A stretch of DNA of 52,487 nucleotides from Alphaproteobacteria bacterium (GCA_013288305.1 JABDCD010000004.1:1-52487); one strand, 5' to 3'. Positions 3,531 through 38,279 are shown, counted from the stretch's first letter. Program-made: numbers and translations. The notes: generated by a model not told the origin, from the sequence alone.

Positions 3531-3553
3531 TGAAACTCCCTGGAACCCTGCGC

Positions 3554-16430: not shown

Positions 16431-18140
16431 TTAAGCGATCAGCTTCAGCAAGGCTTGTACTTGCGTGTTAGCTTGCGCCAGCACCGAGATACCGGCTTGC
16501 AGCTTAACCTGGTTGGTCGCAAACGCCGCGGATTCGGTCGCGATATTGACATCCAACAGCTGGCTGCGCGCGGCATCCTGGTTCTGAACGCTGTTCTGCA
16601 ATGCCGAGATGGCGAAGCCGACCTGCGATTCCAGGGCACCGATGCCGGAGCGCGTGGCCGTCGCGGTGTTGATGGCCGTGCTGACCGCCGTTGCCGACGT
16701 CGCCGCCGTGCCCGCCGTTTTGACGTCGAGCGTGGCGCCGTTGAACAGGGCGCTGCTTTGCGTGTTGGCGATGTTGACGGTGACGTTGGCGTCTGACGTG
16801 CTTCCGAGCTGGAAGGTCAAACCACCCTGGTTGCCGCCGCTGCCGAAGGCAGTGTTCAGCGCGTTGACGAGGTTGGTAACGTTGGACGCCGTATCGATTC
16901 TGGCGCTGGTGCTGATAGCGCCAAGGGCTACCTGCAGCACTTCATTGCTGGAGGTGTTACCTTGTGCGTATAATTGCAACAGACCAGCGGCGCCGCCGTT
17001 GAACGTGGCGGTTTTAACCGTGGTATCGGTTCCGGCGACGGCTCCTGCGGTAGAATAGGTGGTGCCGTTAACGACGACGGAAAAGACCACGCCGCTGCCG
17101 ATGCCGGTGGCCGACCAGTCGGAAATCGACGGCAATTTCTGCGCCGTTCCGGTAGTGAATAGCTGCGACTGGATCGTGACATTGCTGCCGCTGAAGCTGT
17201 CGAGCAAGGTGCCGGCGGTCGAAGAAGCGGTAATGGCCGAACCGGCGATGTTATTGCCGGCACTGTCGGTCGCAAGCGTTGTTGCAACCGTATGGATGGC
17301 AAAGCCCTTTGCGCTGGCAAGAGAAGTCGTGAGCTGCGTCCCGAACTGGGTTGCAGTCACGCCGGCAGCAAGAGCATTAACAGAAAATGTAATGGTGCTG
17401 GTGCCGTTATCGAGTGCCAGTGTAGTAGCATCCACCGCCAGGGTGCCGTTCCACACCGAGCCGTTGAGTGCAAGGGATACGGTATAGGCATGTTGGGTAT
17501 TGTCCGTGGTGCCGGTCGAGAGGAAGATGCCTTTGGACAAATCGCCCTGGAAAGCGGTGTCGTTTTGAGTGGCGCCGGACGCAACATCGAGCACGAAGCT
17601 CTTGAATTGACCCACGTTAGTCGTTGCGGTGAAACCGGTTACCGTAAGGGCGGCATTGGCGGTAACGGTGGCGATGCTGGCGGTGCGCAGCGGGTTGTTG
17701 GAGCCGCCGGTGGCGATCGAGCCGTCGATCAAATTCACGCCGTTGAACTGCGTGCCTTTGGCCAAAGAGTTGATTTCGCTTGTCAGCGCCTGGAATTCCT
17801 GGTCGAGGAAGCCGCGGTTAGTATCGGTCAACGAACCGGATTGCGCCTGGTTGGCGACGGATTCCATCGTCTGCAGGATGGACTGGATCTGCGCCACTGC
17901 GCCGTCGGCCACCTGGAGGAGGCTGTTGGCTGCCGAAGCGTTGGTTTGCGCCGTTTGCAACGTGCTTACCTGCGTCGCCAGCGAAGTACCTACAGCGAGC
18001 GCCGCCACGTTGTCAGAGGCCTGAATGATGGCGTTGCCGCTTGAGAGGCGGGCGACGTTGAGGGCTGCCGCTCTAGACGCTGTATCAATGTTACCTTGCG
18101 CGTAATAGGCAGCGATATTGGTGTTGATTGAATTTGACAT
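16431..18140 (-). CDS. fliC: Flagellin (569 aa)
   Basis: N-terminal INTNIAAYYAQGNI...LSSGNAIIQASDNVAALAVG...LQTMESVANQAQSGSLTDTNRGFLDQEFQALTSEINSLAKGTQFNGVNLIDG. C-terminal RSGIGALESQVGFAISALQNSVQNQDAARSQLLDVNIATESAAFATNQVKLQAGISVLAQAN. The central domain is S/T/A/G-rich. Confidence 0.95.
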   Translation of the reverse strand: MSNSINTNIAAYYAQGNIDTASRAAALNVARLSSGNAIIQASDNVAALAVGTSLATQVSTLQTAQTNASAANSLLQVADGAVAQIQSILQTMESVANQAQSGSLTDTNRGFLDQEFQALTSEINSLAKGTQFNGVNLIDGSIATGGSNNPLRTASIATVTANAALTVTGFTATTNVGQFKSFVLDVASGATQNDTAFQGDLSKGIFLSTGTTDNTQHAYTVSLALNGSVWNGTLAVDATTLALDNGTSTITFSVNALAAGVTATQFGTQLTTSLASAKGFAIHTVATTLATDSAGNNIAGSAITASSTAGTLLDSFSGSNVTIQSQLFTTGTAQKLPSISDWSATGIGSGVVFSVVVNGTTYSTAGAVAGTDTTVKTATFNGGAAGLLQLYAQGNTSSNEVLQVALGAISTSARIDTASNVTNLVNALNTAFGSGGNQGGLTFQLGSTSDANVTVNIANTQSSALFNGATLDVKTAGTAATSATAVSTAINTATATRSGIGALESQVGFAISALQNSVQNQDAARSQLLDVNIATESAAFATNQVKLQAGISVLAQANTQVQALLKLIA

Positions 18141-18302: not shown

Positions 18303-19481
18303 TTATATTTCAAGCAGCCCGCGCATCCGTTTTTCCTGCGTCCAGCCGGGTTCCGTATAAATTTGCATCGAAAAAGCCGGATCGCCCAGATGATCCATGA
18401 ACCGTGAGATGCTTTGCATGATGCGAACCGCCGCATCCTGCGGCAATGTTGCTCCATATATATTGTAACTGCACATCAGCGCAAGTTTTATGGTGGCTAG
18501 CCGCACGCCGATGACGGTGATGCGTTCCGAAAGTTTATCCCCCAGCCCGGCATAGGGGAAGAGCGCCAGCGCCAGTTGCATCTGCAGCCAGCGGCGCAAG
18601 TGCGGCGCATATTTCGCCGCAGCTTCCTTTTGCCACAGCGCTTTTACCTTCTGATAGGCGGCGGCGCTTTGGACGGTGGTGTTGATTCTTACCGTGTCCC
18701 AATCCAGCGTGGCCGCCAATGCTTTTTCCATATCACCGATGGTTTGTTTCAGGCGCGGCGATGGTCGTTTTTTCGAGGCGACGATCAATCCGCATAGCGC
18801 ATGTAACAGGTTGAACGGGTCGGCGGCATCGCTCTCGGGGGGCGGCAGGCGCCCGTCGGCATGGGTGAGATAAAACGGCGCAGCCTGCGGCCAGCCTTTG
18901 CGGTCGATGCGCTCAAAGGAACGGCTGACATTGGCGATGCGCAAAAAAATACGCTCGGCACTTGCTTGTTTGTCTTCCGTCGCTTTGAGAAATGCCTGGT
19001 GCACTGCCAGCGCATCCCCGGCTGCGGTGTCCTCCGGCAGATAATTTTTCAGCGAATGCGGCAGGCGTTCGGCTGCCGCTTCTTCCCATGCGCAGGCATT
19101 CTCATCGGCCAGGGCGAGCCGGACGATTTCGGGGCAGGACATGGCGGCGGTCATGACAACCTGGTTACCCAGCGCGCGCGTCACGCGCGGATAAAAATAA
19201 CAGGCGTCGCCGAGAAATTTTTCACCGTGTGTTTTATGGATGCCGCACAGGCCGCCTTCCAGCTTGACGCAAAAACTCGTCTGCGGATCTTTGCGCATGA
19301 TGTGCGATCCGTCCGGCTCGGCTTCGACCGCGCCCAGCAGTTCCGGTGCTTCTTTTTTATAGCGTGCCAGCGTCGGCTCGTCCATCTGCATCGACCAGCC
19401 TTGGCAGCAGGTATCTTCGCACTTGTCGCCGAGACAGGAAAATTTTGAAAGCAGTTGGGAACGCAGAATGGCTGTCATCAT
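18303..19481 (-). CDS. fliB: Flagellin lysine-N-methylase FliB-like (CxxCxxCC / YkgJ-type Cys cluster)
   Basis: The likely start is ATGATG at 19481, preceded by AAGGAGG. The N-terminal FSCLGDKCEDTCCQGWSMQMDEPTLARYKK matches the Salmonella FliB pattern F-C-G--C-D-CC-GW---D. The ORF extension to 19688 overlaps the upstream gene and is Arg/His-rich. Confidence 0.75.
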   Translation of the reverse strand: MMTAILRSQLLSKFSCLGDKCEDTCCQGWSMQMDEPTLARYKKEAPELLGAVEAEPDGSHIMRKDPQTSFCVKLEGGLCGIHKTHGEKFLGDACYFYPRVTRALGNQVVMTAAMSCPEIVRLALADENACAWEEAAAERLPHSLKNYLPEDTAAGDALAVHQAFLKATEDKQASAERIFLRIANVSRSFERIDRKGWPQAAPFYLTHADGRLPPPESDAADPFNLLHALCGLIVASKKRPSPRLKQTIGDMEKALAATLDWDTVRINTTVQSAAAYQKVKALWQKEAAAKYAPHLRRWLQMQLALALFPYAGLGDKLSERITVIGVRLATIKLALMCSYNIYGATLPQDAAVRIMQSISRFMDHLGDPAFSMQIYTEPGWTQEKRMRGLLEI

Positions 19482-21040
19482 AACCTCCTTGCAACGCGCA
19501 GCAACACCGGCAGCCAATCCATCAATGTTTCCTGGCGCTCTACAGTCACGCTGGTATACCAGCGGCTGTCGGTGCGCACCAGTCCCCAGCGCCAATCCGA
19601 GGCGGCGGAAAGCATGATGGTGGTTTTGACGCCGAGCGCGCCGGCCATGTGCACGGTGGTGTTCTGGATGGACACTACTTCGTCGCACGCTGCAATCTGC
19701 GCCGCCAGCCCGTCGATATTCTGGAAACCGTCGATGTCGGGGTCGGCATAAAGCGCGCCGGGGAAGGCGCGGTTCGCCGCTTCCATTTCTCCCGCCGGAG
19801 GGCTGTATTGCAGCGATATATACCGGACATGCGGCAGCGAAAAAAGCGGCGCCCAGTCCGAAAGCGGAATATTGCGCTGGCTGGAATTGTCATTGTTTTT
19901 GGAATGCCAGGAAATGCCCACCAGCTTTTTGCGTTGACCCTGAGATAACGCCAGATATTTTTCCCGTAGCGTTCGCACGCGCGGGCTATCGGCTTTAAGA
20001 TAAGGCGGATGCTGCGACGGCGTATAGTGCGGCAGTGCCAGGCGCATGAGCTGGCTCATGGCCAGCTGGAAATCGCATTTGTTCGTATAGCGGTCGAATA
20101 ATTGCTGCGCGAGCTGAGGCGTTTCGGGTGTATGAGGAACGACGGAGACGTTGGGAAATGAGCGGGCGAACAGCGGAATCAGCTTGGGATAAAGTGCGAG
20201 CGTCACCTGCGCGCCTTGCGCAAACAGCCAGGGAAGTAGGCCGGCGAACATGAAAGCATCGCCGATGCCTTCGTTGCACCATAGCAGCAGATGCTTGCCC
20301 GCGAGCGGCTGACCGCTCCATTCGGGGATGGAAGTGTTGCACATGCATTGGTAAAAGACGCGGTCGCGCACGGCGGCGTAATCCTCGAAACCGTCCTTGC
20401 CATCGCTTAAGAGGAGTTTGATCTGGCCGGTCAGCATGCGCGCCTGGATATCTCCCGGTTTCAGTTCCAGCACTTTTGCCCAGCAGGCCAGAGCCTGTTC
20501 GTTTTCTCCCTTTACGCCGTGCATGCTGGCGCGCACGCGGTAGGGCCCCGGCGAGTCGGGATAGGCTTTCAGCGCCTCTTCGCATATTTCGATGCAGCGC
20601 TCATACTGGCCGTTATAGCTCAGCATCGCAGCGTATTCGGTGTAAAAATCGGCACCCTTCACGCCATGATGATAGATCGCCTCCAGATGTTTCATCCGCT
20701 CGGCGCGCTCATCCACCTTCCGGCATAGCTGTATGGCTACCGAGTGCAGGGCGATAATATCGGGATAGAGGGCGATGAGGCGGTTGATGGCGCTGCCGCT
20801 GATGTCCTTAGGCCTGGTTCCCGCTGTGCACAGATCGCTCAGCATGTCGATCGCTTCGCTATGGTTGGGATCCAAGGCCAGCAGCCGCGCCAGTACGTTC
20901 ATCGCCTGTTCGGTGTTGCTTAAGCGGAGGTGAGCTTGCGCCAGCGGCAGCAGCGAACGCGGATTCTGCGGTTCGGCCAGCGCCAGCTGCTCCAGCCGTT
21001 TCGCCACGGCTTCCCATCCTTCGGCTAATTGCCCTTTCAT
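19478..21040 (-). CDS. TPR-repeat + GT9-like (GT-B) glycosyltransferase, FlmG-like architecture (paralog 1)
   Basis: 520 aa. The N-terminal half has TPR repeats (LPLAQAHLRLSNTEQAMNVLARLLALDPNHSEA). The C-terminal half is heptosyltransferase-like (LLLWCNEGIGDAFMFAGLLPWL; LVGISWHS; DEVVSIQNTTVHMAGALGVKTTIML). The ATGA overlap with fliB suggests translational coupling. Confidence 0.7.
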   Translation of the reverse strand: MKGQLAEGWEAVAKRLEQLALAEPQNPRSLLPLAQAHLRLSNTEQAMNVLARLLALDPNHSEAIDMLSDLCTAGTRPKDISGSAINRLIALYPDIIALHSVAIQLCRKVDERAERMKHLEAIYHHGVKGADFYTEYAAMLSYNGQYERCIEICEEALKAYPDSPGPYRVRASMHGVKGENEQALACWAKVLELKPGDIQARMLTGQIKLLLSDGKDGFEDYAAVRDRVFYQCMCNTSIPEWSGQPLAGKHLLLWCNEGIGDAFMFAGLLPWLFAQGAQVTLALYPKLIPLFARSFPNVSVVPHTPETPQLAQQLFDRYTNKCDFQLAMSQLMRLALPHYTPSQHPPYLKADSPRVRTLREKYLALSQGQRKKLVGISWHSKNNDNSSQRNIPLSDWAPLFSLPHVRYISLQYSPPAGEMEAANRAFPGALYADPDIDGFQNIDGLAAQIAACDEVVSIQNTTVHMAGALGVKTTIMLSAASDWRWGLVRTDSRWYTSVTVERQETLMDWLPVLLRVARRL

Positions 21041-22752
21041 GATGTCAGCCTTTCGCGCACGCGCTGCAATACCGGCTGCCAGTCGAGGAGTTTTTCCTGC
21101 CGCTCGATATGCACGCTTTCATACCAGCGGCTGTCGCTGCGTTTCAATCCCCAGCGCCAATCGGAGGCGGCGCACAGCATCAGCGTCGTTTTTACGCCGA
21201 GCGCGCCGGCCAGATGCACCGTGGAATTCTGGACAGAGATTATTTCATCCATAGCTGCCATCTGCGCTGCCAACCCGTCGATATTCTCGAACGCGTCGAT
21301 ATCGGGATCGACATGGAGCATGTTGGGGAAAGTGCGGCCTACGGCCTCTATCTCAGCGGCATGATCGCCATATTGCAGCGAAACATATTGGATGTCCGGC
21401 AGCAAAAAAAGCGGCGACCATTCCGCCAGCGGAATATTGCGCATCCCGGCGGTGTCGTAGTTGATGGTATGCCAGGAAATGCCCACCAGTTTTTTGATTT
21501 TCCCCGGCGGGCGTAATGCCAGGTATTTTTCGCGCAGGCTTTGCGTCTTTGCCGCATCGACCTTGAGGAAAGGCGGATGCTGCGCCGGCGTGTAATGCGT
21601 CACGCCGTAGGCCATGAGCTGGCCGAAGACGGCCTGCAGGTCGCATTTGGATGCATAGACCTGCAGATTATTTTTGCTGTAGGGAATGATGCCTACGCCG
21701 GGAAAAGATCGCGCAAAAAGCGGAATCATCTTGGGATAAAGCGCGAGTGTAATCTGCGCGCCCTGCGCCATGACCCAGGGCAGGAGGCTGGCGAACATGA
21801 CGACGTCGCCGATGCCCTGGCTCGACCATAGCAGCAGGCGCTTATCTTTAAGCGACTCGCCATGCCATTCCGGTAGCGGAATGACCAATGCTTCCTTGAC
21901 CATGGCGTAATCGCGGTGCGCGGCATATTCCTCGTAGCCCTCGCGGCAATCGCTGGTGAGCAGTTTGATGATGCCGATCGCCACGTGCGACGCATGATCC
22001 TCCGGCGTCATTTTCCCCGCATCGCCCGGCAATTGCGCAACGACGCGCGCCCACTCCGCCAGCGCTTCGTCGTAGCGCCCGAGATTGGTATAGACATTGG
22101 CGCGCATCTTGAGCACGCCCAGCGAGCCGGGATAGGCGGCCAGCGCATCTTTGCACACGGTCAGGCAGCGGTCGAACCGGGCGTTCTGGCTTAAGCACAG
22201 GGTATAGGCGCAGTAGAATGATTCGGTGCGAACGCCCAGAGCATATAGCGCATCCAGATGCACCAGGCGTTCGGCATAATCGCCCACGGTTTGCGCCAGC
22301 CGCGCCGCGACGGAACGCACGCCGATATTCTTCGGATAGTCTTTTGCCAACCGTTTCATGCTGGCATTTTCCGCCAGGCAGAGATCATGCAGCAGGTTCG
22401 AGGCCTCGGCACGATCGGAATCGAGAGCAAGCAATTTGGCCAATACCGCCGTGGCTTTTTCCGGCTGTTTAGCTTGAGCGTAAGCCTGCGCCAGCGGCAG
22501 CATGTGACGACTCTGGCGGGGATTGGCGGCAAGCGCTTTTTGGAAATAGTCCGCGGCAGCTTCCCATCGCTGTGCTTGCAGATGAATCGTTCCCAGCGCG
22601 TGTAAAATATCGGGCTGGCCGGGATAATCCGCCAGCAGCGCTTCGTAGGCGCTTTGCGCGTCGGCGTTTTTCCCATCCACATGCAGCCGCATCGCCGCCA
22701 CCAGGCGCTGTTTCAAATGGTCGCCGGAGGCTAGGGAAGAGCCGCTCATCAT
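21037..22752 (-). CDS. TPR-repeat + GT9-like (GT-B) glycosyltransferase, FlmG-like architecture (paralog 2)
   Basis: 571 aa with the same architecture. The C-terminal domain is highly similar to the 19478..21040 product (LLLWSSQGIGDVVMFASLLPWV; LVGISWHT; DEIISVQNSTVHLAGALGVKTTLML), while the N-terminal TPR part is more divergent. ATGA overlaps at both ends. Confidence 0.7.
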   Translation of the reverse strand: MMSGSSLASGDHLKQRLVAAMRLHVDGKNADAQSAYEALLADYPGQPDILHALGTIHLQAQRWEAAADYFQKALAANPRQSRHMLPLAQAYAQAKQPEKATAVLAKLLALDSDRAEASNLLHDLCLAENASMKRLAKDYPKNIGVRSVAARLAQTVGDYAERLVHLDALYALGVRTESFYCAYTLCLSQNARFDRCLTVCKDALAAYPGSLGVLKMRANVYTNLGRYDEALAEWARVVAQLPGDAGKMTPEDHASHVAIGIIKLLTSDCREGYEEYAAHRDYAMVKEALVIPLPEWHGESLKDKRLLLWSSQGIGDVVMFASLLPWVMAQGAQITLALYPKMIPLFARSFPGVGIIPYSKNNLQVYASKCDLQAVFGQLMAYGVTHYTPAQHPPFLKVDAAKTQSLREKYLALRPPGKIKKLVGISWHTINYDTAGMRNIPLAEWSPLFLLPDIQYVSLQYGDHAAEIEAVGRTFPNMLHVDPDIDAFENIDGLAAQMAAMDEIISVQNSTVHLAGALGVKTTLMLCAASDWRWGLKRSDSRWYESVHIERQEKLLDWQPVLQRVRERLTS

Positions 22753-23456
22753 TGCCGCTTATCCGCGTAGATCATGGCGTAATATTCCTTGAACCATTTG
22801 TCGGCGTAGTCGCATTCCTCGTAGCCTTTGAAATAGGGGCCGCCCAGCGTGTAATGCAAATTGGCGATCTGCGACAGCGGCACCGGGTCGTATTCGCTGA
22901 CCAGGAAGTTCCAACGGATGGAGAGTTCGCCGATTTCCGCCTCGTTCTTCAGCCACTGGAAGCGGTGCAGCTCCAGGCCGGAAGCGGTATTGACGTAGTC
23001 CGGCGTAAGCCGCGTGCACTTGGCGCAGTTCATCAGCATGACGCTCGACCAGTTCTTTTTTTCGTAACTGGTTTGCTTCTGGCCGAGGAATTTCGCATCC
23101 GTTTTGGGCGTGTAATTATGCTTGGCCACCATCACGGCATAACGGTCGTCGCGTAAGCTCCATAATTTGGCGATGTCGTCCAGCACCAGCATGTCGCAAT
23201 CCATGAAGATCGCCCACCCTTCGTAATTGCACAGATACGGCGTGAGGAAACGGGTGAAGGCGAATTCGGTGGATTGCAGCGAGTTGCGCTCGCGGGTGAA
23301 GATTTTGGACAGCTGTGGCAGCGCCAGCGGCGTGATGGCGGTGGGCAGCGAGGAACGCGAGAGGATGCTATGCGTCAGCACGTGGTAGGCGACGGTTTCG
23401 CGCTGGTCGAAGCCGATGAAGACGCGGATGCTGTCGGCTTTGTCGGTGTTTTGCAT
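22749..23456 (-). CDS. GT-A fold glycosyltransferase, family 8-like (DxD)
   Basis: 235 aa. The sequence VFIGFDQRETVAYHVLTHSI...TEFAFTRFLTPYLCNYEGWAIFMDCDMLVLDDIAKLW contains a DxD motif (DCD) in a nucleotide-diphospho-sugar-transferase-like context. Confidence 0.6.
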   Translation of the reverse strand: MQNTDKADSIRVFIGFDQRETVAYHVLTHSILSRSSLPTAITPLALPQLSKIFTRERNSLQSTEFAFTRFLTPYLCNYEGWAIFMDCDMLVLDDIAKLWSLRDDRYAVMVAKHNYTPKTDAKFLGQKQTSYEKKNWSSVMLMNCAKCTRLTPDYVNTASGLELHRFQWLKNEAEIGELSIRWNFLVSEYDPVPLSQIANLHYTLGGPYFKGYEECDYADKWFKEYYAMIYADKRQ

Positions 23457-23475
23457 AGGATCCTTTTTTTTGCGG

Positions 23476-24732
23476 TTACAGGGTTGCGGCGATGGGTTGT
23501 TTTTCGGCGCCTGCGGAGGCGCAGAATTTATAGATAAAGTATTCGTACACTCCGTTCAATACCTCCTGGCTGACATGGCGGGAGGCGGCGTCTTCCTTCC
23601 CGAACACGGCGCTGCCGATGTTGGGCGCGATCCAGCGGACGATTTCGAAGGACGGGAAATAGAATAGCTTATCATCGGCTTGATGTTTTTCCAGGAACTC
23701 GTTCAGCGCCGCGCGCAACAGCGACTTGCTGACGCAATCGATTTCCACGGCGCTTAAGTTAGCCGAATGTTTGATGCCGATGGCGCTGTCGATGGGTACC
23801 GGCGACAGTGTGAGCAGCAAACGGGCGGTGGGGTTGATGGTGCGGATGGCCTTGTACAGGGCGTCGAGAGCTTCGCTGACTTCGGCGTAGCTGCCGATGC
23901 GGAATTCGGCGCCTGCCGTTTTCAGCTTGCCGGTCAGGTGCGAGCGCAAAGCGATGTCCTCGTTGGTGGAGATGGTCAGGAATTTAGGCGCGATCGCCGG
24001 ACCGACTTCGAATTCCGCTGGTGTTGGCGGCAGGAAATAATCGAGCACGTTGCCGTAAGTGACGATCAGAAATTCGCTGGCCTTCAGCGCCGCCAGCAAG
24101 GCCTCCAGCCGTTGCAGCTCCATTTTCACCACGGCGGCCAGATCGACGCCGGCGTCTTTGGGATATAAAACGTCTACCCAATGTTCGATATAGGCGCGCT
24201 GCAGCCGCGGCGCGGCGGTGCACACGGCCAGCAGCTTGGCGTTGGAAAAGGGGGAATTCAGATCCTCGGCCTGGATGAACGGCGATATAGTGAAGCCGCG
24301 GTGCTGCAGGTAATTGGCGATGTTGCGGGCGAAGCAGGAGCCCATGGTGAAGATGCGGGTGGCGGGGTCGATAAAATCGAAACGCCGCGATCCGAAGGCG
24401 GCGTCGAGAAAGGCAACGGTGGTGGAAAATTCATCGCTGCAATGCGGGTAGACTTCGACCAGCCGGTCGTTGCGCTTTTTGCGTTTGTGAACCAGCGTTT
24501 CTTCGATTTGCCGCGTTTCGCTTGCGCTCAGGCCGGGGTTGACGGCGGAGACGGGCAGGCACCATTTCATTTTCTGCCAGTCGCCTTCGAGCTTGAGATC
24601 GGCGATGAACTGGCAAAACTTGTTCACCAGCTCGCCGCGGGCCGCAGCGCTCGAATCTTTTGCCAGCAGGTCGAAGAAATTCCTGTAGATAAATCTTGAC
24701 AAGTCCCGGCTTTTATCCGCATAAAATTCCAT
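23476..24732 (-). CDS. GSCFA-family (SGNH/GDSL-like) protein with ~130-aa N-terminal extension
   Basis: 418 aa. Contains the eponymous motif IFTMGSCFARNIA and a C-terminal EDAASRHV (D..H-like block). It is a paralog of the N-terminal two-thirds of 25493..27472. Confidence 0.75.
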   Translation of the reverse strand: MEFYADKSRDLSRFIYRNFFDLLAKDSSAAARGELVNKFCQFIADLKLEGDWQKMKWCLPVSAVNPGLSASETRQIEETLVHKRKKRNDRLVEVYPHCSDEFSTTVAFLDAAFGSRRFDFIDPATRIFTMGSCFARNIANYLQHRGFTISPFIQAEDLNSPFSNAKLLAVCTAAPRLQRAYIEHWVDVLYPKDAGVDLAAVVKMELQRLEALLAALKASEFLIVTYGNVLDYFLPPTPAEFEVGPAIAPKFLTISTNEDIALRSHLTGKLKTAGAEFRIGSYAEVSEALDALYKAIRTINPTARLLLTLSPVPIDSAIGIKHSANLSAVEIDCVSKSLLRAALNEFLEKHQADDKLFYFPSFEIVRWIAPNIGSAVFGKEDAASRHVSQEVLNGVYEYFIYKFCASAGAEKQPIAATL

Positions 24733-24766
24733 GGTTTTACCTTGAAAACATTGGCGTTAGATCCTC

Positions 24767-25486
24767 ATGCACTCGAACCCTGAGCTGGAACTGACGTATA
24801 AAATCGCCAATGTCCCGGTGTCCTATTTTCCTTTTCCGCATTTTTATATCCGGGATATTTTCCCGGCGGATTTTTACCGCGACTTGATCGCCAACCTTCC
24901 CGATCATTCCGCGATGCTGCCGATCGGCGAGGTGCGTCCGGTCAAGGGGTATAAGGAGCGTTTCGTGCTGCAGATGAGCCCGCAGTATCTTGCAGCGCTG
25001 CCCGAAGCGAAAAGAAAATTCTGGGAGGAATGCGCGCAGTGGATGATGACTGGAAAACTCACCAATTATCTGCTCAATAAATTTTCCGCCCACATCAATG
25101 AGCGCTTCAAAAACGTTCAGAGCCCCATATTTTATAATGAGTGTATGCTTATCGAGGATATCACCAATTATTCCATAGGGCCGCATAGCGATTCTCCGAA
25201 AAAAGTCATTTCCGTTCTTTTTTACCTGCCGAAAGATGATTCCCAGGCCAACCTCGGCACGTCCATTTATGTTCCCAAGGAGGCGAGCTTTACCTGTCCG
25301 GGCGGACCTCACTACGGGTTCGAGAATTTCAGCAAAGTCCATACCATGCCCTTCCTTCCCAATTCGGTATTCGTATTCCTGAAAACGGCCAATTCCTTTC
25401 ATGGCGTGGAACCGGTGACTACGCCGGATCGCAGCCGATGGGTCTTTCTTTTCGACATTTACGTTAAACAACCTCCCGTTTCATAA
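24767..25486 (+). CDS. 2OG-Fe(II) oxygenase superfamily protein (prolyl-hydroxylase-like)
   Basis: 239 aa. It has an HxD...H facial-triad-like arrangement: YSIGPHSDSPKKVISVLFYLPKD ... NSFHGVEP. The composition is more coding-like than the antisense ORF. It is the only plus-strand gene inside the island and looks visibly more AT-rich than its neighbours. Confidence 0.6.
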   Translation: MHSNPELELTYKIANVPVSYFPFPHFYIRDIFPADFYRDLIANLPDHSAMLPIGEVRPVKGYKERFVLQMSPQYLAALPEAKRKFWEECAQWMMTGKLTNYLLNKFSAHINERFKNVQSPIFYNECMLIEDITNYSIGPHSDSPKKVISVLFYLPKDDSQANLGTSIYVPKEASFTCPGGPHYGFENFSKVHTMPFLPNSVFVFLKTANSFHGVEPVTTPDRSRWVFLFDIYVKQPPVS

Positions 25487-25492
25487 GCCTCG

Positions 25493-27472
25493 TCAGCGGC
25501 GGAAAATGCGCTCGATAACGCTTTCTTTCCTGATGACGGCGCCGTCGTCGCCCAGCGCTACTTCCGTGACGACAAACTGATACTGTACTTGCGGGAAACC
25601 AGAGGCGATGCGTTCGATCGTTGTTTTCCACCAGGCGGGCGGCTGTATGGTGCAATGCGCATTTTCGCCGTTGGGAAGAATTCTTTTCGCGGCATAGCAG
25701 GCGATGTTGGCGAAGACAAAATGTCTGGCATAGGAAAATAGTTCGGCCAGAATCCACGGCAAGTCTTCTTCTGGGCAATGCTCCAGCACGTCGGTGCAGA
25801 TGACGCCGTCGAACTTTCCCTGCGGCAGCTCCGTATAGGGCGGGTAGGCCGGATCGTAGAGCGTGATCTCCTTCACGCCCCAGAAGGCCTTGATCGATGG
25901 ATACTCTGCATTTCCTGCCGTAATTGAAGCAACTTGATATAATTTTCCTTTGCCGCAGCCGTAATCGAGCAGGGTTTGGGCTTTGGTGCGTTTGGCCAAC
26001 ATACCGATGCGCGGCGCCTGATGCGGCAGGCTGATACCGGCGAACATTTCCTCCGGCTTGGTGTCGGTGGTGCCATGCAGGTGCAAATGCTGATACTGCT
26101 CCAGCAATTGGCGGTAGCGTTCGCTTGGCTGCTGGCGGCTGTATTCTGTTTTTACGGCTGTATGTTCCATGACACTCTCCTGATCGGGCGCTGCGCCGCG
26201 GCCGAATTTATGAATAAAGTATTCGTATACGCCGGTGAGCACATGCTCGCTGACATGCCGGGAAGAAGCGTCTTCCTTTCCCAGCACGGCGGCATCCATG
26301 CACGGTCCCACCCAGCGCACGATTTCAAACGAAGGGAAATAAAAAAGTTTTCTATCCGATTTTTTTCGCTCCATCACATCGTCGAGCGCGGCCTTCAGGA
26401 GCGATTTGCTGAGACAATCGATTTCGATGGCGCCCAGCTTTCTGGCGTGAACGATACCCAGCGCGTTGCCGATGGGAACGGGAGAAAGCGTGAGCAATAT
26501 GGGGGCGTGCGGATTGATGTTTCTGATCGCCGCATATAAAGCATCCAGGGCTGCCACGGCTTCCGGGTAGGTGCCGAGGCGGAATTCGGAGCCGGCTTCT
26601 TTCAGCTTGTGCGTCAGGTGCGAGCGCAGGTCGATGTCTTCATCATGGGATATGGATAGGAACTTCGGCGCTACGGGCGGGCCGATTTCATATCCGGCAG
26701 ACGCCGCGGCGGCGGTCATGAAATAATCCAGGACGTTGCCGCAGGTGATAATTAAAAATTCGGCGGATTTCAGGGATTCGGCCAGCTTTTCGAGCCGATG
26801 CAGCTCGTTTTTTATGACCGCTTCAAAATCCACACCCTTATCCGCCGGGTAGAGAAACCTGACCCAATGTTCGACGTAGGCTGCCTTGAGCGGCGCCGGG
26901 GCGGCGCAGACGGCGAGCATTTTCGCATTGGAAAAAGGCGAGTTCAAATCCTCTGCCTGGTCGCAATGCCCGACGGCAAATCCTTTCTGGCGCAGATGCT
27001 CAGCGATATTGAGCGCAAAGCAGGAGCCGAGAGTGAATATGCGGCTGGTCTCATCAAACAGGCCGTATCGCTCCGACCCGAAAGCCGCATCGAGGAATTC
27101 AATCCGCGTGGAAAATTCGTCGCTGCAGTGAGGATAGACTTCGAGCAGCTTTTCATTGCGCCTTTTGCGCTTCTGCGCCAGGGCATTTTCCACTTTCCCG
27201 ATCTCGTCCCCGCTCAGGCCGGCACGGGCATAATCGGGCAGGAAAAATTTCATTTTCTGCCAGTCGCCTTCGAGTTTCAAATCGGCGAGGGACTTGCAAA
27301 ACTCGTCTATAAACCCCCTGCGCGCCGCATCGTTAGGGCAATCGGCGGCCGATTTGGAAAACTTCCTATAGGTGACCCTGGGCAGGTTTTTTCCCGTAAA
27401 AGAATGGAAATAACACTCCCTGAGGTTGGCGCGGCTATAGTCGTCATAGGCAATGGCGGGGTCGGTGGTCAT
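25493..27472 (-). CDS. Fusion protein: GSCFA-family domain + C-terminal class I SAM-dependent methyltransferase
   Basis: 659 aa. Residues 1-~425 parallel the 23476..24732 product (IFTLGSCFALNIA; EDASSRHV). Residues ~445-659 carry MTase motif I LLDYGCGKGK and FDGVICTDVLEHCPEEDL. The start codon lies 3 nt after the fliW stop. Confidence 0.75.
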   Translation of the reverse strand: MTTDPAIAYDDYSRANLRECYFHSFTGKNLPRVTYRKFSKSAADCPNDAARRGFIDEFCKSLADLKLEGDWQKMKFFLPDYARAGLSGDEIGKVENALAQKRKRRNEKLLEVYPHCSDEFSTRIEFLDAAFGSERYGLFDETSRIFTLGSCFALNIAEHLRQKGFAVGHCDQAEDLNSPFSNAKMLAVCAAPAPLKAAYVEHWVRFLYPADKGVDFEAVIKNELHRLEKLAESLKSAEFLIITCGNVLDYFMTAAAASAGYEIGPPVAPKFLSISHDEDIDLRSHLTHKLKEAGSEFRLGTYPEAVAALDALYAAIRNINPHAPILLTLSPVPIGNALGIVHARKLGAIEIDCLSKSLLKAALDDVMERKKSDRKLFYFPSFEIVRWVGPCMDAAVLGKEDASSRHVSEHVLTGVYEYFIHKFGRGAAPDQESVMEHTAVKTEYSRQQPSERYRQLLEQYQHLHLHGTTDTKPEEMFAGISLPHQAPRIGMLAKRTKAQTLLDYGCGKGKLYQVASITAGNAEYPSIKAFWGVKEITLYDPAYPPYTELPQGKFDGVICTDVLEHCPEEDLPWILAELFSYARHFVFANIACYAAKRILPNGENAHCTIQPPAWWKTTIERIASGFPQVQYQFVVTEVALGDDGAVIRKESVIERIFRR

Positions 27473-27474
27473 GG

Positions 27475-27903
27475 CTACAGCATGTGCTGGACTTTATAAT
27501 GATCCTGCTGAAACACATACTGCACGCCGGTTTTGCGATCAGCATCGATCAGGAGCGGCGCGCGCGCGTTGACCGACAGCTTGACCTGCTCCAGGCCGCG
27601 ATGCACCGATACGATCAGCAGCAGCGCCAGGTTCGGCGGGTCGATCTGCAGGTCGCGGCAGGCGGCACCCAGGTCGGCTTCGGCGATGATGGCGTTACGC
27701 GTTTCCAGCGGCAGGGTGATGAACGACAGGGCGATGTCGTCGAGCGATTGCAGCAGGGTGAATTGCTGCATTTTCGGGCTGGGGAATTTGGTCAGCACGA
27801 AACGGAATTTGTCCGGCATCCCGAGCAGGCCGCGCGGGAACACGATCGCCTTGTCCGTATCCACGGTAATCTCGCCGAAACGCGATGCGATGGTTTCCAT
27901 CAT
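27475..27903 (-). CDS. fliW: Flagellar assembly factor FliW
   Basis: The likely start is MMETIASRFGEITVD (ATG at 27903). FPRGLLGMPDKFRFVL...FTLLQSLDD..LSFITLP...NARAPLLIDADRKTGVQYVF..DHY matches the FliW family pattern. Confidence 0.85.
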   Translation of the reverse strand: MMETIASRFGEITVDTDKAIVFPRGLLGMPDKFRFVLTKFPSPKMQQFTLLQSLDDIALSFITLPLETRNAIIAEADLGAACRDLQIDPPNLALLLIVSVHRGLEQVKLSVNARAPLLIDADRKTGVQYVFQQDHYKVQHML

Positions 27904-27983
27904 GACGGTACCAGAAGCTATAAACCCGGTTGAATTTGCCGATTGGTGTAGCATATGTACCGCCTTTTGTGAATAGAGGCTAG

Positions 27984-28124
27984 GTTCTATTGATAAATTC
28001 TACTAGCCTGGCCAACTTGCTTGGTTTTCTGCGCTTCCGGTGCTCACGTACAAGTGTACGCTCCGCTCCGGTTCTTAAAAACCGGCGCATTTGGCTCAGC
28101 CTAGCGAATTTCTCAACAGAACCC
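27984..28124. repeat. Imperfect ~29-bp inverted repeats flanking an 83-bp core in the flgL-fliW intergenic region
   Basis: GGTTCTATTGATAAATTCTACTAGCCTGG (27984..28012) pairs with the reverse complement of 28096..28124 (GGTTCTGTTGAGAAATTCGCTAGGCTGAG). The core holds two short hairpins (GTACAagTGTAC and CCGGTTcttaaaAACCGG). Confidence 0.55.
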
Positions 28125-28137
28125 ATATTGTAATTTG

Positions 28138-29046
28138 TTACTTTAAATAATCCGAAAGCCTCAGAGCAGAAATTTTGGCGAATGCCGCGAAAGATGCCTG
28201 CAGGATGCCCTGGTTGACCGCCACCTGCGTCGACACCGAGACGATATCGGTATTGCCGATGCTCTGCTGCAATCCCTGCCAGTAGAGTTTCTGGTTATTC
28301 AGGACGGTGTCGCTATTGGTAAGCTGCCCCGCCGTCGCCCCTACCGTCGCCTGCAATGCCGTTATCTGCGCTATGCCCTGCTGCACGAAGTTTTCCGCAT
28401 TCTGGAGATCGGTGGTGTTATTGCCCTGGTCGCCTTTTTGCGCCGTGGCCAGCCCGGCGAAAAGCTGCTGGAAACCGGAGGCATCGGCGCGCACGTTGTA
28501 GGTAATGACGGTATTGTCGTCGATGCGCGTGGTCATGTCCTGCCCGCTGCCCTGGTAATAGCCGGTATCGGGTGTGCCCGGCACTTGCAGCGTGGGGAAG
28601 GTATTTTTGACCGCCGGCGTATTGGTGGCGGTGCCGGAAAATAGGTACTGGTTGTTCACGCTGGTGTTGAGCTGCCCGACCAGCGTTTGCCAGATGCCTT
28701 GAAGCTGGGTGCTGAAGCCGGCGCTCGACGTGCCGCTCATGCGCTGCGAGATCAGGCTCTGCAAATCAGTAGCCGTTTTGATAATCTGGCCAAGCACCGT
28801 GCTTGCCGTATTTACGCTGGCTTCTATGGTCTGGTGGTTCTCGACATACTGCGTCGTGCGGGCAATGGTGTCGGAGAGCGACAGGTATTGCTGGGTCTGG
28901 CCGGTCGCCGCCATGCCGGCGAAATCCTGGAAGGCATTTCCGCTGGACAGTTGTTCCTGCTCTTTGGTCAAGTTGGTTTCCACCGTATTCACATCATTCA
29001 GCGTCGACTGGAAAGCCGCATAGGTGCTGACAGTTCCCACTCCCAT
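28138..29046 (-). CDS. flgL: Flagellar hook-associated protein 3 FlgL
   Basis: The likely start is MGVGTVSTYAAFQ (ATG at 29046, with AAGGAGAGG upstream). It has flagellin-like termini, with C-terminal VSTQVAVNQGILQASFAAFAKISALRLSDYL. Lies downstream of flgK. Confidence 0.8.
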   Translation of the reverse strand: MGVGTVSTYAAFQSTLNDVNTVETNLTKEQEQLSSGNAFQDFAGMAATGQTQQYLSLSDTIARTTQYVENHQTIEASVNTASTVLGQIIKTATDLQSLISQRMSGTSSAGFSTQLQGIWQTLVGQLNTSVNNQYLFSGTATNTPAVKNTFPTLQVPGTPDTGYYQGSGQDMTTRIDDNTVITYNVRADASGFQQLFAGLATAQKGDQGNNTTDLQNAENFVQQGIAQITALQATVGATAGQLTNSDTVLNNQKLYWQGLQQSIGNTDIVSVSTQVAVNQGILQASFAAFAKISALRLSDYLK

Positions 29047-34546: not shown

Positions 34547-35377
34547 ATGACCATCAAGAAACCACATACCGTTTATCTGCCGCTGCCGGGAAAGCAATGG
34601 CTGGGGCGCGCCGGCGTGGCGCTGATGGTGACGTTTGCGCTGACGCTGTTGATGATGAGCAAGGCCAATAATCCGGCGGCGCAGCGCCTGCGCACCAACA
34701 TTACCGATATGGCGGCGCCGGTGTTGGCGGTGGCGAGCAGCCCGATGGACGCGCTCTATAATGCCGGGATGTGGCTCACGGATATGTCGCAGTTGCGCGA
34801 GCAAAATGTTTTTTTGAAAAACCAGAATATCGAATTGCTGCAATGGCAGTCGGCGGCCAAGGAAATGGAGGCCGAGAACCGTTCGCTGCGCAGTCTGCTC
34901 AACGTCGTGCCGCCGAAAAAGAACAGCTACATCACGGCGCGCATCGTCTCCGACCTCGGCGGCCCTTACGTGCATTCGGCGCTGGTAGGCGGCGGCAGCG
35001 CGCAGGGCATTAAAAAAGACGAGGCGGTCACCAATGAAAACGGGCTGATCGGCCGCGTCATCGACGTGGGGGCGGCCAGCGCGCGCGTGCTGTTGCTTTC
35101 CGACATCAATTCGCGCGTGCCGGTAGTCACCGAGCATTCGCAGGAAAAAAGCATTCTCGCCGGCAACAACAGCGAGTGGCCGACGTTGTCGTATCTGGCC
35201 GTGGGTAGCAAGGTCGTCGTCGGCGAACGCGTCGTTACTTCGGGCGACGGCGGCATTTTCCCGCCGGGGATACCGGTGGGCGTCGTCACTGCCGTCGAAG
35301 CAGGAGAAGTCCGCGTGCAGCCGTTTGCCGATGCGGCGAAAGCGGAGTATGTAAGTATTATAGACTATGCGTTTTAG
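34547..35377 (+). CDS. mreC: Rod shape-determining protein MreC
   Basis: 276 aa with an N-terminal TM segment and a coiled-coil (LREQNVFLKNQNIELLQWQSAAKEMEAENRSLRSLL). Beta-domain motifs include GIKKDEAVTNENGLIGRVIDVGAASARVLLLSDINSRVPV and GIFPPGIPVG. Confidence 0.9.
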   Translation: MTIKKPHTVYLPLPGKQWLGRAGVALMVTFALTLLMMSKANNPAAQRLRTNITDMAAPVLAVASSPMDALYNAGMWLTDMSQLREQNVFLKNQNIELLQWQSAAKEMEAENRSLRSLLNVVPPKKNSYITARIVSDLGGPYVHSALVGGGSAQGIKKDEAVTNENGLIGRVIDVGAASARVLLLSDINSRVPVVTEHSQEKSILAGNNSEWPTLSYLAVGSKVVVGERVVTSGDGGIFPPGIPVGVVTAVEAGEVRVQPFADAAKAEYVSIIDYAF

Positions 35378-35385
35378 AGCGACCC

Positions 35386-37808: not shown

Positions 37809-37907
37809 CGGCTTGGTTTTTAATGTTTTTTTATGGAAACCGGCGATTATGCTTGCATCTGCTTCCGGTTTGGGCTATTAAGCCCCTCCCAAATAAAGGA
37901 TTAGCCT

Positions 37908-38252: not shown

Positions 38253-38279
38253 TCACAAGAATTGGTTTTTTGTAACGAA

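What the first reader, a model, noticed from the sequence alone, without database searches (positions are those of the whole stretch)
23476..27472. Two paralogous GSCFA-family proteins sharing an unrecognised ~130-aa N-terminal module in a flagellar locus
Both products carry the family-defining G-S-C-F-A block (IFTMGSCFARNIA / IFTLGSCFALNIA). Both also carry a distal E-D-A-x-S-R-H block, which suggests an SGNH/GDSL-like Ser...Asp/His site.

They are collinear and clearly paralogous over ~420 aa. This includes an N-terminal region I cannot assign to any family: F(I/V)..FC...ADLKLEGDWQKMK...KRK(K/R)RN..L(L/V)EVYPHCSDEFST..(A/E)FLDAAFGS.R.

GSCFA is, to my knowledge, a domain of unknown function. 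Placement between flagellin glycosyltransferases and fliW suggests an acyl (for example O-acetyl) transferase or esterase acting on a flagellin glycan, or on flagellin itself.
Basis: partly seen in the sequence, partly recalled or inferred. Interest (0 to 1): 0.7.

Follow-up and report, generated by a model that had tools for sequence, protein, structure and literature searches.

The report
Paired GSCFA enzymes in flagellar locus
Two duplicated enzymes of a barely studied hydrolase/acyltransferase family (GSCFA) sit inside a flagellar operon with a hydroxylase, a methyltransferase and sugar transferases, so they probably decorate the flagellin sugar coat, but related genes elsewhere are usually not next to flagellar genes.

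Summary
ORFs 23476-24732(-) (418 aa) and 25493-27472(-) (659 aa) are 59% identical over 414 aa. Both score far above threshold for Pfam GSCFA (PF08885), and both carry a ~125-143-aa N-terminal region with no Pfam, PDB-sequence or Foldseek match.

The AlphaFold model (pLDDT 90.9) matches GDSL/SGNH esterases, in line with Pfam's own clan assignment. The SGNH idea is therefore right but not new.

- The longer paralog ends in a fused class I SAM methyltransferase.
- The opposite-strand gene between the paralogs is a 2OG-Fe(II) oxygenase (HxD...H...R). It is the family's conserved partner, lying within 1 kb in 53 of 63 assessable genes.
- The N-terminal region is not a free module. Among 1.84 billion representative proteins it occurs only as the N-terminus of these long-form GSCFA proteins.

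Flagellar linkage is local. Only 3 of 30 well-flanked related loci, from two lineages, carry flagellar genes.

The best precedent is PipG, a GSCFA protein needed to O-acetylate a hydroxyl installed by a dioxygenase; the Cys of its GSCFA motif is essential. My best reading is a cytoplasmic hydroxylate / O-acylate / methylate tailoring cassette recruited to flagellin glycosylation. It is a new variant of a known kind, of moderate interest.

The parts
23476..24732 (-). GSCFA-1, 418 aa, long-form GSCFA-family (SGNH-fold) protein
   Evidence: ORF; PF08885 92 bits; AF2 pLDDT 90.9, pTM 0.89; Foldseek SGNH hits
24358..24732 (-). N-terminal helical extension of GSCFA-1 (aa 1-125); invariant R13, Y16, R17, P60, P96, D100, E101
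   Evidence: Alignments A1 and A4. No Pfam, PDB or Foldseek match. Found only on GSCFA proteins.
24328..24342 (-). G131-S132-C133-F134-A135 motif (block I; candidate nucleophile is Ser132 or Cys133) at the junction of strand 127-131 and helix 133-144
23575..23595 (-). E-D-A-A-S-R-H (D381 and H386 invariant), the candidate block V acid/His
24767..25486 (+). 239-aa 2OG-Fe(II) oxygenase (H140-x-D142...H212...R224), the conserved partner of long-form GSCFA genes
   Evidence: PF13640 at 23.4 bits, below the cut-off of 27. Invariant triad in A3. PDB profile hits 9blq at 2.7e-6 and 9ei6 at 1.4e-5. Within 1 kb of 53 of 63 GSCFA genes.
25493..27472 (-). GSCFA-2::methyltransferase fusion, 659 aa; its start codon lies 2 nt after the fliW stop codon
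27044..27472 (-). N-terminal helical extension of GSCFA-2 (aa 1-143)
27014..27028 (-). GSCFA motif of GSCFA-2 (aa 149-153)
26255..26275 (-). E-D-A-S-S-R-H block of GSCFA-2 (aa 400-406)
25496..26152 (-). C-terminal class I SAM methyltransferase domain (aa 441-659; DYGCGKG motif)
   Evidence: Methyltransf_23 at 32 bits against a cut-off of 27. More than 2600 stand-alone ~220-aa homologs at 50-64% identity. Adjacent as a separate gene in L017 and L018 at 49% identity.
22749..23456 (-). GT8-like glycosyltransferase (235 aa, DxD motif FMDCDM), 19 nt downstream of GSCFA-1
   Evidence: PF01501 at 25.2 bits against a cut-off of 24.3. Co-occurs with GSCFA or the methyltransferase in L015-L018, L035, L076 and L077.
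19478..22752 (-). Two TPR proteins (571 and 520 aa) with a conserved ~300-aa C-terminal domain. Their architecture resembles FlmG; glycosyltransferase homology is not confirmed.
27475..27954 (-). fliW, immediately upstream of GSCFA-2 in the same direction
   Evidence: PF02623, E = 1.7e-15
16431..18140 (-). Flagellin (569 aa), the presumed target of the glycosylation genes
   Evidence: Flagellin_N and Flagellin_C

Best explanation
The two genes encode soluble, cytoplasmic SGNH-fold enzymes of the GSCFA family. They belong to a small 'long-form' subfamily that carries its own helical N-terminal domain. They are part of a tailoring cassette inserted into the late flagellar operon. The cassette comprises two FlmG-like TPR proteins, a GT8-like glycosyltransferase, a P4H-like 2OG-Fe(II) hydroxylase and a SAM methyltransferase fused to GSCFA-2.

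Proposed mechanism (inferred, not shown): the oxygenase installs a hydroxyl on the flagellin-linked glycan, its precursor, or a flagellin side chain. A GSCFA enzyme then forms an acyl-enzyme on the invariant Ser132/Cys133-His386 site and transfers the acyl group (for example acetyl) to, or removes it from, a hydroxyl. The fused methyltransferase methylates the same substrate.

Shown here: family membership, fold, conserved candidate active-site residues, the gene fusion, the conserved oxygenase partnership and the operon packing.

Inferred only: the chemistry (by analogy to PipE followed by PipDFG) and the substrate (from this locus alone).
For: Family and fold:
- PF08885 scores of 92 and 89 bits.
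- AF2 model with pLDDT 90.9, whose best PDB matches are GDSL/SGNH esterases, the acyl-CoA-using acyltransferase SsfX3 and the OafA SGNH domain.
- GSCFA is listed in SGNH clan CL0264.

Candidate catalytic residues:
- G131, S132, C133, N137, G227, D381 and H386 are invariant in 44 homologs sharing as little as ~35% identity; N228 is conserved in at least 90% of them.
- The motif sits at the junction of a strand and a helix.

Partnership and fusion:
- An oxygenase homolog lies within 1 kb of 53 of 63 assessable GSCFA genes and keeps HxD...H...R.
- The methyltransferase is fused here and is a separate neighbouring gene in 14 loci.

Localisation: no signal peptide or transmembrane segment, consistent with cytoplasmic flagellin glycosylation as described for FlmG (PMC7591256).

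Operon packing:
- 2 nt between the fliW stop and the GSCFA-2 start.
- 19 nt between GSCFA-1 and the GT8-like gene.
- 4-nt overlaps between the following genes.

Independent flagellar case: Mesorhizobium has flhA, oxygenase, GSCFA, a sulfotransferase, then flgD.

Precedent: deleting the GSCFA gene pipG abolishes O-acetylation of the hydroxyl made by the dioxygenase PipE, and Cys47 of its GSCFA motif is required (PMC12828459).
Against: - No biochemical activity is known for any long-form GSCFA protein.
- In PipDFG the catalytic Ser/His that were proven to matter lie in PipF, a canonical SGNH protein. No such partner is present in this island.
- The acid-His spacing is D-x4-H, not DxxH.
- I could not inspect model coordinates, so the triad geometry is untested. 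hhalign against E. coli TesA gave no alignment of the core.
- Most related loci lack flagellar genes (27 of 30). They include the dcw cluster, an mreBCD neighbourhood, polysaccharide-type clusters and a conjugative element. The family's general substrate is therefore not flagellar.
- No sugar-nucleotide or acyl-donor genes were found among the larger ORFs of the window that I scanned against Pfam.
Confidence: 0.45

Rival explanations
1. The GSCFA-oxygenase pair is a general-purpose, horizontally mobile cassette that acts on a non-flagellar substrate, such as an envelope glycan, lipid, small metabolite or another protein. Its position in this flagellar locus is an insertion with no role in flagellin modification.
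For: - Only 3 of 30 well-flanked loci have flagellar genes.
- The pair sits between ddl and murB in one clade, next to mreCD, in clusters with an ABC transporter, GT2 glycosyltransferases and methyltransferases, and on a conjugative element with TrwC, a type IV coupling protein (T4CP) and ParB.
- It is present in AT-rich Methylophilaceae and marine alphaproteobacterial MAGs.
- In the closest relative, L005, the GSCFA and GT8 genes are truncated remnants while the flagellar genes are intact.
Against: - In the window the genes are co-directional with fliW, the GT8-like gene, the TPR proteins and flagellin, with gaps of 2 to 19 nt or overlaps.
- Mesorhizobium provides a second, independent flagellar embedding.
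- Flagellin-glycosylation genes need not lie in flagellar loci at all (FlmG paper), so the absence of flagellar neighbours elsewhere is weak evidence.
Confidence: 0.25
2. The GSCFA proteins are hydrolases (esterases or deacylases), not transferases. They would remove an O-acyl or similar protecting group from a nucleotide-sugar or glycan intermediate during assembly of the flagellin glycan.
For: The nearest structural matches are mostly esterases: 7e16, 8ik1, Est2A, PAF-AH and CE2. Hydrolysis is the default chemistry of the SGNH fold (PMC9487903).
Against: The only genetic evidence for a GSCFA protein points to acetyl addition, not removal. An invariant Cys next to the Ser, together with a cytoplasmic location, fits thioester-based transfer.
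Confidence: 0.15
3. One or both paralogs are non-catalytic scaffold or specificity subunits. For example, GSCFA-1 could pair with GSCFA-2 as PipG pairs with PipF, with the helical N-domain binding flagellin, the oxygenase or the TPR proteins.
For: - The role of PipG in the PipDFG complex is unclear, and it needs PipF for complementation.
- Paralog pairs arose independently at least twice, in the window and in L015.
- The N-domain has a conserved basic helix and resembles no known enzymatic fold.
Against: Both paralogs keep every invariant candidate catalytic residue: GSC, GN, D and H. Most genomes carry only a single copy.
Confidence: 0.1

Closest known systems
PipG, the GSCFA-domain protein of the pseudotetraivprolide / detoxin-rimosamide clusters in Pseudomonas entomophila (PMC12828459)
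   Same: Same Pfam family (GSCFA, SGNH clan). It acts after an Fe/2OG dioxygenase and is required for O-acetylation of the newly made hydroxyl. The Cys of its GSCFA motif is functionally essential; the corresponding Cys is invariant here.
   Different: - PipG has its motif at residues 46-47, so it lacks the ~125-aa N-domain.
- It needs PipF (a canonical SGNH protein) and PipD, for which no counterparts are seen in this island.
- Its dioxygenase is reported as a taurine-dioxygenase homolog, not P4H-like.
- Its substrate is an NRPS-PKS peptide, not a flagellar component.
- PipG His51 corresponds to an invariant Asn137 here.
Canonical SGNH/GDSL hydrolases (E. coli TesA/TAP; PDB 7e16, 4h08, 8ik1)
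   Same: Same core alpha/beta/alpha fold (Foldseek probability 1.0, TM-score on the target of about 0.5-0.56). The nucleophile motif follows strand 1, a Gly-Asn follows strand 3, and an invariant His precedes the last helix.
   Different: - G-S-C instead of G-D-S.
- D-x4-H instead of D-x-x-H.
- Large insertions and an extra N-terminal helical domain; sequence identity is only about 10%.
- No alignment of the core was detectable by hhalign.
SsfX3 salicylyl-acyltransferase (PDB 3skv) and the glycan O-acetyltransferase SGNH domains (OafA 6se1, PatB, AlgX)
   Same: These are SGNH-fold enzymes that transfer acyl groups rather than hydrolyse them. From my own knowledge, SsfX3 is cytoplasmic, uses an acyl-CoA donor and has an accessory N-terminal domain. 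Both 3skv and 6se1 appear among the Foldseek hits.
   Different: From my own knowledge, the N-domain of SsfX3 is a beta-sandwich, not helical. OafA, PatB and AlgX act outside the cytoplasm with a membrane AT3 or MBOAT partner; no such partner is present here.
FlmG-type flagellin O-glycosylation systems (Caulobacter; PMC7591256)
   Same: Cytoplasmic modification of flagellin. The transferases have an N-terminal TPR region plus a C-terminal domain, and are similar in size (596 aa against 520 and 571 aa here).
   Different: No pseudaminic or legionaminic acid synthesis genes were found among the larger ORFs of the window scanned against Pfam. The FlmG paper does not mention a GSCFA protein, and I know of no 2OG-oxygenase or GT8 component in those systems. 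Homology of the TPR proteins' C-terminal domain to a glycosyltransferase was not confirmed.

Membership tests
Pfam GSCFA (PF08885) | Profile HMM score above the gathering cut-off (25 bits) | tested here: met
   92.0 bits (aa 126-399) and 89.2 bits (aa 144-397)
Pfam GSCFA (PF08885) | G-S-C-F-A motif at the start of the domain | tested here: met
   IFTMGSCFA and IFTLGSCFA; all five residues are invariant in 44 homologs
SGNH hydrolase superfamily (CL0264) | Flavodoxin-like alpha/beta/alpha fold resembling solved SGNH structures | tested here: met
   AF2 pLDDT 90.9. The top Foldseek PDB hits are SGNH/GDSL enzymes at probability 1.0 and E = 2e-4. Clan listing in PMC9487903.
SGNH hydrolase superfamily (CL0264) | Block I nucleophile directly after strand 1, at the N-terminus of helix 1 | tested here: met
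   Strand 127-131, then S132/C133, then helix 133-144. Which of Ser or Cys is the nucleophile is unresolved.
SGNH hydrolase superfamily (CL0264) | Block II Gly and block III Asn as oxyanion-hole residues | tested here: inconclusive
   G227-N228 follow strand 221-226 and are conserved. There is no invariant Gly after strand 149-152; instead E156, D157, S163 and N164 are invariant. No structural superposition was available.
SGNH hydrolase superfamily (CL0264) | Block V D-x-x-H | tested here: not met
   The invariant D381 and H386 are spaced D-x4-H; position -3 from the His is Ala or Ser.
SGNH hydrolase superfamily (CL0264) | Catalytic triad geometry (nucleophile-His-acid within bonding distance) | not testable with these tools
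   Model coordinates are not exposed, and hhalign against TesA failed to align the core.
PipDFG-type O-acetyltransferase system | GSCFA subunit with an essential Cys in the motif | tested here: met
   The Cys is present and invariant. Whether it is essential was not tested.
PipDFG-type O-acetyltransferase system | Obligate partners PipF (canonical SGNH) and PipD encoded alongside | tested here: not met
   No other SGNH/GDSL-type Pfam hit among the island ORFs.
PipDFG-type O-acetyltransferase system | Acts on a hydroxyl installed by a co-encoded Fe/2OG dioxygenase | not testable with these tools
   A co-encoded 2OG oxygenase is present and conserved, but the chemistry needs experiments.
2OG-Fe(II) oxygenase (partner gene 24767-25486) | HxD...H facial triad plus a 2OG-binding Arg; profile similarity | tested here: met
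   H140, D142, H212 and R224 are invariant in 23 homologs. PDB profile hits 9blq at 2.7e-6 and 9ei6 (P4H-like) at 1.4e-5. Pfam PF13640 scores only 23.4 bits against a cut-off of 27.
Class I SAM methyltransferase (C-terminus of GSCFA-2) | Profile score above cut-off and a GxGxG SAM-binding motif | tested here: met
   Methyltransf_23 at 29.9-32 bits against a cut-off of 27; DYGCGKG motif.
Flagellin glycosylation island | Glycosyltransferase and tailoring genes co-oriented and contiguous with flagellin and late flagellar genes | tested here: met
   Gene order and spacing. The GT8-like gene scores above its cut-off. The glycosyltransferase nature of the TPR proteins is unconfirmed.
Flagellin glycosylation island | Flagellin actually carries a glycan that depends on these genes | not testable with these tools
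   Needs mass spectrometry of flagellin from wild type and mutants.

The most novel reading that the evidence does not exclude
Long-form GSCFA plus a P4H-like 2OG oxygenase is an undescribed, horizontally mobile two-enzyme 'hydroxylate-then-acylate' system of alpha-, beta- and gammaproteobacteria. An SGNH scaffold uses the invariant Cys (G-S-C in place of G-D-S) as a thioester-forming nucleophile, and the private helical N-domain selects the substrate. In this genome the system was duplicated, fused to a methyltransferase and recruited to create a new kind of flagellin or flagellin-glycan decoration.
Probability: 0.2. Interest if true: 0.65.

Novelty: new variant of a known kind. Interest (0 to 1): 0.45.

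Why it matters
GSCFA is one of five SGNH-clan families that a 2022 review listed as having no characterised member and, in this case, no solved structure either. The only functional data since then are genetic (PipG, December 2025).

This locus and its relatives add three testable leads:
- A conserved GSCFA / 2OG-oxygenase gene pair that mirrors the PipE-then-PipG logic in a completely different setting.
- A natural fusion to a SAM methyltransferase.
- A subfamily-specific helical N-domain with no known fold relative.

If the cassette modifies flagellin, it offers a tractable read-out, namely mass shifts on an abundant secreted protein. That could establish what GSCFA enzymes do and whether they use Cys or Ser as the nucleophile. 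Acyl and methyl decoration of flagellin glycans can also affect filament assembly, phage adsorption and immune recognition.

Tried and rejected
- Sequence searches of the PDB with GSCFA-1 and with the 44-sequence profile gave no meaningful hit. The weak 1yb3 and DUF3201 matches to aa 42-75 are a single sub-threshold signal and I dismissed them.
- hhalign of the profile against E. coli TesA, meant to map catalytic residues, aligned only 50 columns of the N-region at probability 0.9%. It was useless.
- Foldseek with the isolated N-domain model (pLDDT 84.8) gave a best E of 3.2, so there is no fold assignment.
- The promoter and terminator scan of 22500-28200 found nothing above shuffled expectation.
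- A literature look-up of PDB codes 9BLQ and 9EI6 returned irrelevant papers. Searches linking flagellin glycosylation with SGNH or 2OG enzymes found nothing relevant.
- I tried to confirm that the C-terminal domain of the TPR proteins is a glycosyltransferase. There was no PDB hit with a single sequence or with an 8-sequence profile, and only one of eight members touched Glyco_transf_9, at E = 0.067. 'FlmG-like' therefore rests on architecture alone.
- I rejected the idea that the N-terminal region is a shuffled, independent domain. All 31 hits in 1.84 billion representatives are N-termini of GSCFA proteins or fragments of them.
- I rejected the idea that the two paralogs are a very recent tandem duplicate. 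GSCFA-1 is closer to P0002 from another sample (69% identity) than to GSCFA-2 (59%).

Full report

Yes. The window holds two minus-strand ORFs, 23476-24732 (418 aa, 'GSCFA-1') and 25493-27472 (659 aa, 'GSCFA-2'). BLASTP between them gives 59% identity over 414 collinear residues, E = 8e-177.

Both match Pfam PF08885 (GSCFA) at 92 and 89 bits against a cut-off of 25. The domain begins exactly at the IFT(M/L)GSCFA block. Translation confirmed the coordinates of the GSCFA and E-D-A-x-S-R-H blocks in both genes.

The regions upstream of the Pfam domain (aa 1-125 and 1-143) are 51% identical to each other. They match nothing in Pfam even at E <= 10, nothing in NCBIfam and nothing in PDB sequences.

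The flagellar context is confirmed. All of the following genes lie on the minus strand: flgE, flgD, fliK, fliD, flagellin, an unknown ORF, two TPR proteins, a GT8-like transferase, GSCFA-1, GSCFA-2, fliW, flgL, flgK and flgI. One plus-strand gene lies between GSCFA-1 and GSCFA-2. Packing is tight:
- The GSCFA-2 start codon lies 2 nt after the fliW stop.
- GSCFA-1 is followed after 19 nt by the GT8-like gene.
- The next genes overlap by 4 nt.

**2.

- GSCFA-2 carries a C-terminal class I SAM methyltransferase domain (aa ~441-659). It scores 30-32 bits for Methyltransf_23 against a cut-off of 27 and has a DYGCGKG motif.
- The plus-strand ORF 24767-25486 between the paralogs encodes a 239-aa 2OG-Fe(II) oxygenase. 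Its Pfam score is sub-threshold (PF13640, 23.4 against 27). However, an alignment of 23 homologs keeps H140-x-D142, H212 and R224 invariant. Its profile hits PDB 9blq ('putative hydroxylase', 2.7e-6) and 9ei6 (a P4H-alpha-like protein, 1.4e-5).

**3. Fold and candidate active site**

With a 44-sequence alignment, AlphaFold2 gives a confident single-body model: pLDDT 90.9, pTM 0.89. Foldseek against the PDB returns GDSL/SGNH esterases first (7e16, 4h08, 8ik1; E about 2e-4, probability 1.0, TM-score on the target 0.5-0.56). These are followed by Est2A, the acyltransferase SsfX3, PAF-AH, CE2 esterases and the OafA SGNH domain.

This agrees with Pfam, which already lists GSCFA in SGNH clan CL0264. 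A 2022 review names GSCFA among the families with no known function, and its table lists no solved structure for it (PMC9487903).

Residues invariant across 44 homologs, which share as little as ~35% identity, include G131, S132, C133, F134, A135, N137, E156, D157, G227, D231, D381 and H386; N228 is conserved in at least 90% of them. In the model the motif sits at the junction of strand 127-131 and helix 133-144, and G227-N228 follow strand 221-226.

Two departures from the textbook SGNH pattern:
- The acid-His spacing is D-x4-H, not D-x-x-H.
- G-S-C aligns position for position with G-D-S. This puts the invariant Cys, not the Ser, at the classical nucleophile position.

The second point is an inference. 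I could not superpose structures because coordinates are not exposed, and hhalign against TesA failed.

All island proteins lack signal peptides and transmembrane segments. They are therefore predicted to be cytoplasmic.

**4. The N-terminal 'module'**

It is a real, conserved, folded region. Six helices are predicted with pLDDT 86-96 in the full-length model. On its own it still folds at pLDDT 84.8 and pTM 0.78. Residues R13, Y16, R17, P60, P96, D100 and E101 are invariant. Foldseek finds no relative in the PDB; the best E is 3.2.

It is not, however, an independent module. A profile of the two window copies, searched against 1.84 billion representative proteins, found only 31 proteins. In every one the match is at the N-terminus. 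All are ~395-460-aa GSCFA proteins or contig-end fragments that run into the GSCFA motif.

It is best described as the defining N-terminal extension of a small 'long-form' GSCFA subfamily. That subfamily comprises about 210 clusters at 90% identity, from proteobacteria.

**5. Genomic associations**

I collected 81 related loci in all; the neighbourhood statistics below were computed on the 74 in hand. Using a profile built from oxygenase homologs, 53 of 63 assessable long-form GSCFA genes have an oxygenase homolog within 1 kb. A further group has a more divergent ~310-aa relative beside it.

A homolog of the GSCFA-2 methyltransferase domain is a neighbour in 14 loci. The GT8-like gene is a neighbour in 6.

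Flagellar genes are rare neighbours. They occur in 3 of the 30 loci that have at least 8 kb of flank:
- L005 is a close relative of the window. There the GSCFA and GT8 genes are truncated remnants.
- Two Mesorhizobium loci have the order flhA, oxygenase, GSCFA, sulfotransferase, then flgD, flgL, flgK and flgE.

Other settings:
- Inserted between ddl and murB in a Pseudorhodoplanes-like clade.
- Next to mreCD.
- In clusters with an ABC transporter, GT2 glycosyltransferases and methyltransferases.
- On a conjugative element with TrwC, a type IV coupling protein (T4CP) and ParB.
- Alone, with no oxygenase.

A neighbour-joining tree places GSCFA-2 as sister to GSCFA-1 plus one metagenomic homolog. 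It also shows that the paralog pair in L015 arose independently (no bootstrap support was computed).

The methyltransferase domain has more than 2600 stand-alone ~220-aa homologs at 50-64% identity. Among the hits listed, the fusion to GSCFA appears only in this window. In gammaproteobacterial MAG loci the methyltransferase, a GT8-like protein (53-62% identical to the window's) and several TPR proteins with the same C-terminal domain occur together without GSCFA or the oxygenase.

The window therefore combines two partly independent gene sets. One is TPR proteins plus GT8-like plus methyltransferase. The other is GSCFA plus oxygenase.

**6. Closest functional precedent**

In Pseudomonas entomophila the GSCFA protein PipG, together with PipD and PipF, is genetically required for O-acetylation of a hydroxyl that the Fe/2OG dioxygenase PipE places on a proline ring. 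Mutating Cys47 of the GSCFA motif abolishes the function (PMC12828459).

PipG has its motif at residues 46-47, so it cannot contain the 125-aa N-domain. Its proven Ser/His partner PipF has no counterpart in this island.

The logic 'dioxygenase makes the hydroxyl, the GSCFA system acylates it' nonetheless matches the conserved gene pair found here, although the oxygenase appears to belong to a different family (the Pip-type enzyme is reported as a taurine-dioxygenase homolog).

**7. Most likely mechanism (confidence about 0.45)**

I propose a cytoplasmic tailoring cassette for flagellin glycosylation with these steps:
- TPR-domain proteins, which resemble the flagellin glycosyltransferase FlmG in architecture (PMC7591256), and the GT8-like enzyme attach sugar.
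- The oxygenase hydroxylates the glycan, its precursor or a flagellin residue.
- The GSCFA enzymes form an acyl-enzyme on Ser132/Cys133 with His386 and transfer an acyl group to a hydroxyl, or remove one.
- The fused methyltransferase methylates the same substrate.

Shown here: family, fold, conserved residues, the fusion, the partnership and the operon packing.

Inferred only: the chemistry and the substrate.

Rival explanations:
- A general non-flagellar cassette that happens to be inserted here (0.25).
- An esterase rather than a transferase (0.15).
- A non-catalytic scaffold role for one paralog (0.10).

**8. Novelty and score**

The family, the clan and a first functional hint are already known. 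As far as the searchable literature shows, the following are not described:
- The long-form subfamily with its private N-domain.
- Its strong pairing with a P4H-like oxygenase.
- The methyltransferase fusion.
- The embedding in a flagellar operon.

I rate this a new variant of a known kind, with interest 0.45. It is not very surprising to a specialist. It does offer a convenient experimental handle on a long-uncharacterised enzyme family.

Noticed in passing
window 24767-25486 (+): A 2OG-Fe(II) oxygenase gene lies on the opposite strand between the two GSCFA paralogs. It is only 34 nt from the GSCFA-1 start and 6 nt from the GSCFA-2 stop. Any read-through from fliW and GSCFA-2 into GSCFA-1 would therefore be antisense to it. 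It turned out to be the family's conserved partner.
   Followed up: yes
window 25496-26152 (-): The C-terminal methyltransferase domain of GSCFA-2 belongs to a very large family of stand-alone ~220-aa proteins (more than 2600 hits at 50-64% identity), nearly all annotated as hypothetical. The fusion to GSCFA was seen only here.
   Followed up: partly
L077 2757-12851; L076 8001-16520: In gammaproteobacterial MAGs the same methyltransferase, a GT8-like protein (53-62% identical to the window's) and up to four TPR proteins sharing the window's C-terminal domain form a cluster. That cluster has no GSCFA, oxygenase or flagellar genes. This looks like a widespread, unnamed TPR / GT8 / methyltransferase gene set.
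   Followed up: partly
window 19478-22752 (-): The ~300-aa C-terminal domain of the two TPR proteins is conserved (23 invariant columns in 8 sequences). It has no Pfam or PDB match; only one relative touches Glyco_transf_9, at E = 0.067. Calling them glycosyltransferases rests only on their FlmG-like architecture.
   Followed up: partly
window 18303-19688 (-); L005 10812-12035: An ORF of up to 461 aa between the TPR genes and flagellin has no Pfam hit. It is 59% identical to a 407-aa ORF in the same position next to flagellin in the closest relative, L005. The window ORF overlaps the upstream gene by ~210 nt, so its true start is probably internal.
   Followed up: no
L005 9370-10900: In the closest relative (MAG REEB114) the island has decayed. 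Only the C-terminal half of a GSCFA gene (matching aa 190-411, 68% identity) and a 77-aa GT8 fragment remain between fliW and the unknown ORF. No TPR, oxygenase or methyltransferase genes are present.
   Followed up: partly
L002 6748-13343; L004: In two Mesorhizobium species, the oxygenase-GSCFA pair is embedded between flhA and flgD. In L002 a Sulfotransfer_2 gene lies next to the pair; in L004 the contig ends ~1.4 kb past the GSCFA gene, so this could not be checked there. This is an independent flagellar association with a different tailoring partner.
   Followed up: partly
L006, L009, L019, L037, L071: In a Pseudorhodoplanes-like clade, the GSCFA-oxygenase pair is inserted inside the otherwise conserved dcw cell-division cluster, between ddl and murB.
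   Followed up: partly
L081 732-12011: A GSCFA-oxygenase pair lies on a contig with a TrwC relaxase, a type IV coupling protein and ParB. This suggests the pair moves on conjugative elements.
   Followed up: no
window 34547-40255; L020 7999-14434: The window has mreC, a probable mreD, PBP2 and an ABC/FtsX (MacB-like) pair a few kb beyond the flagellar genes. In L020 the GSCFA-oxygenase pair sits directly between a MacB-like ABC/FtsX pair and mreD-mreC-mreB. This may be remnant synteny or coincidence.
   Followed up: no
window 1280-5386 (-): Two adjacent PilT/T2SSE-type ATPase genes and a 610-aa TPR protein lie at the left end of the window. They are unrelated to the finding.
   Followed up: no
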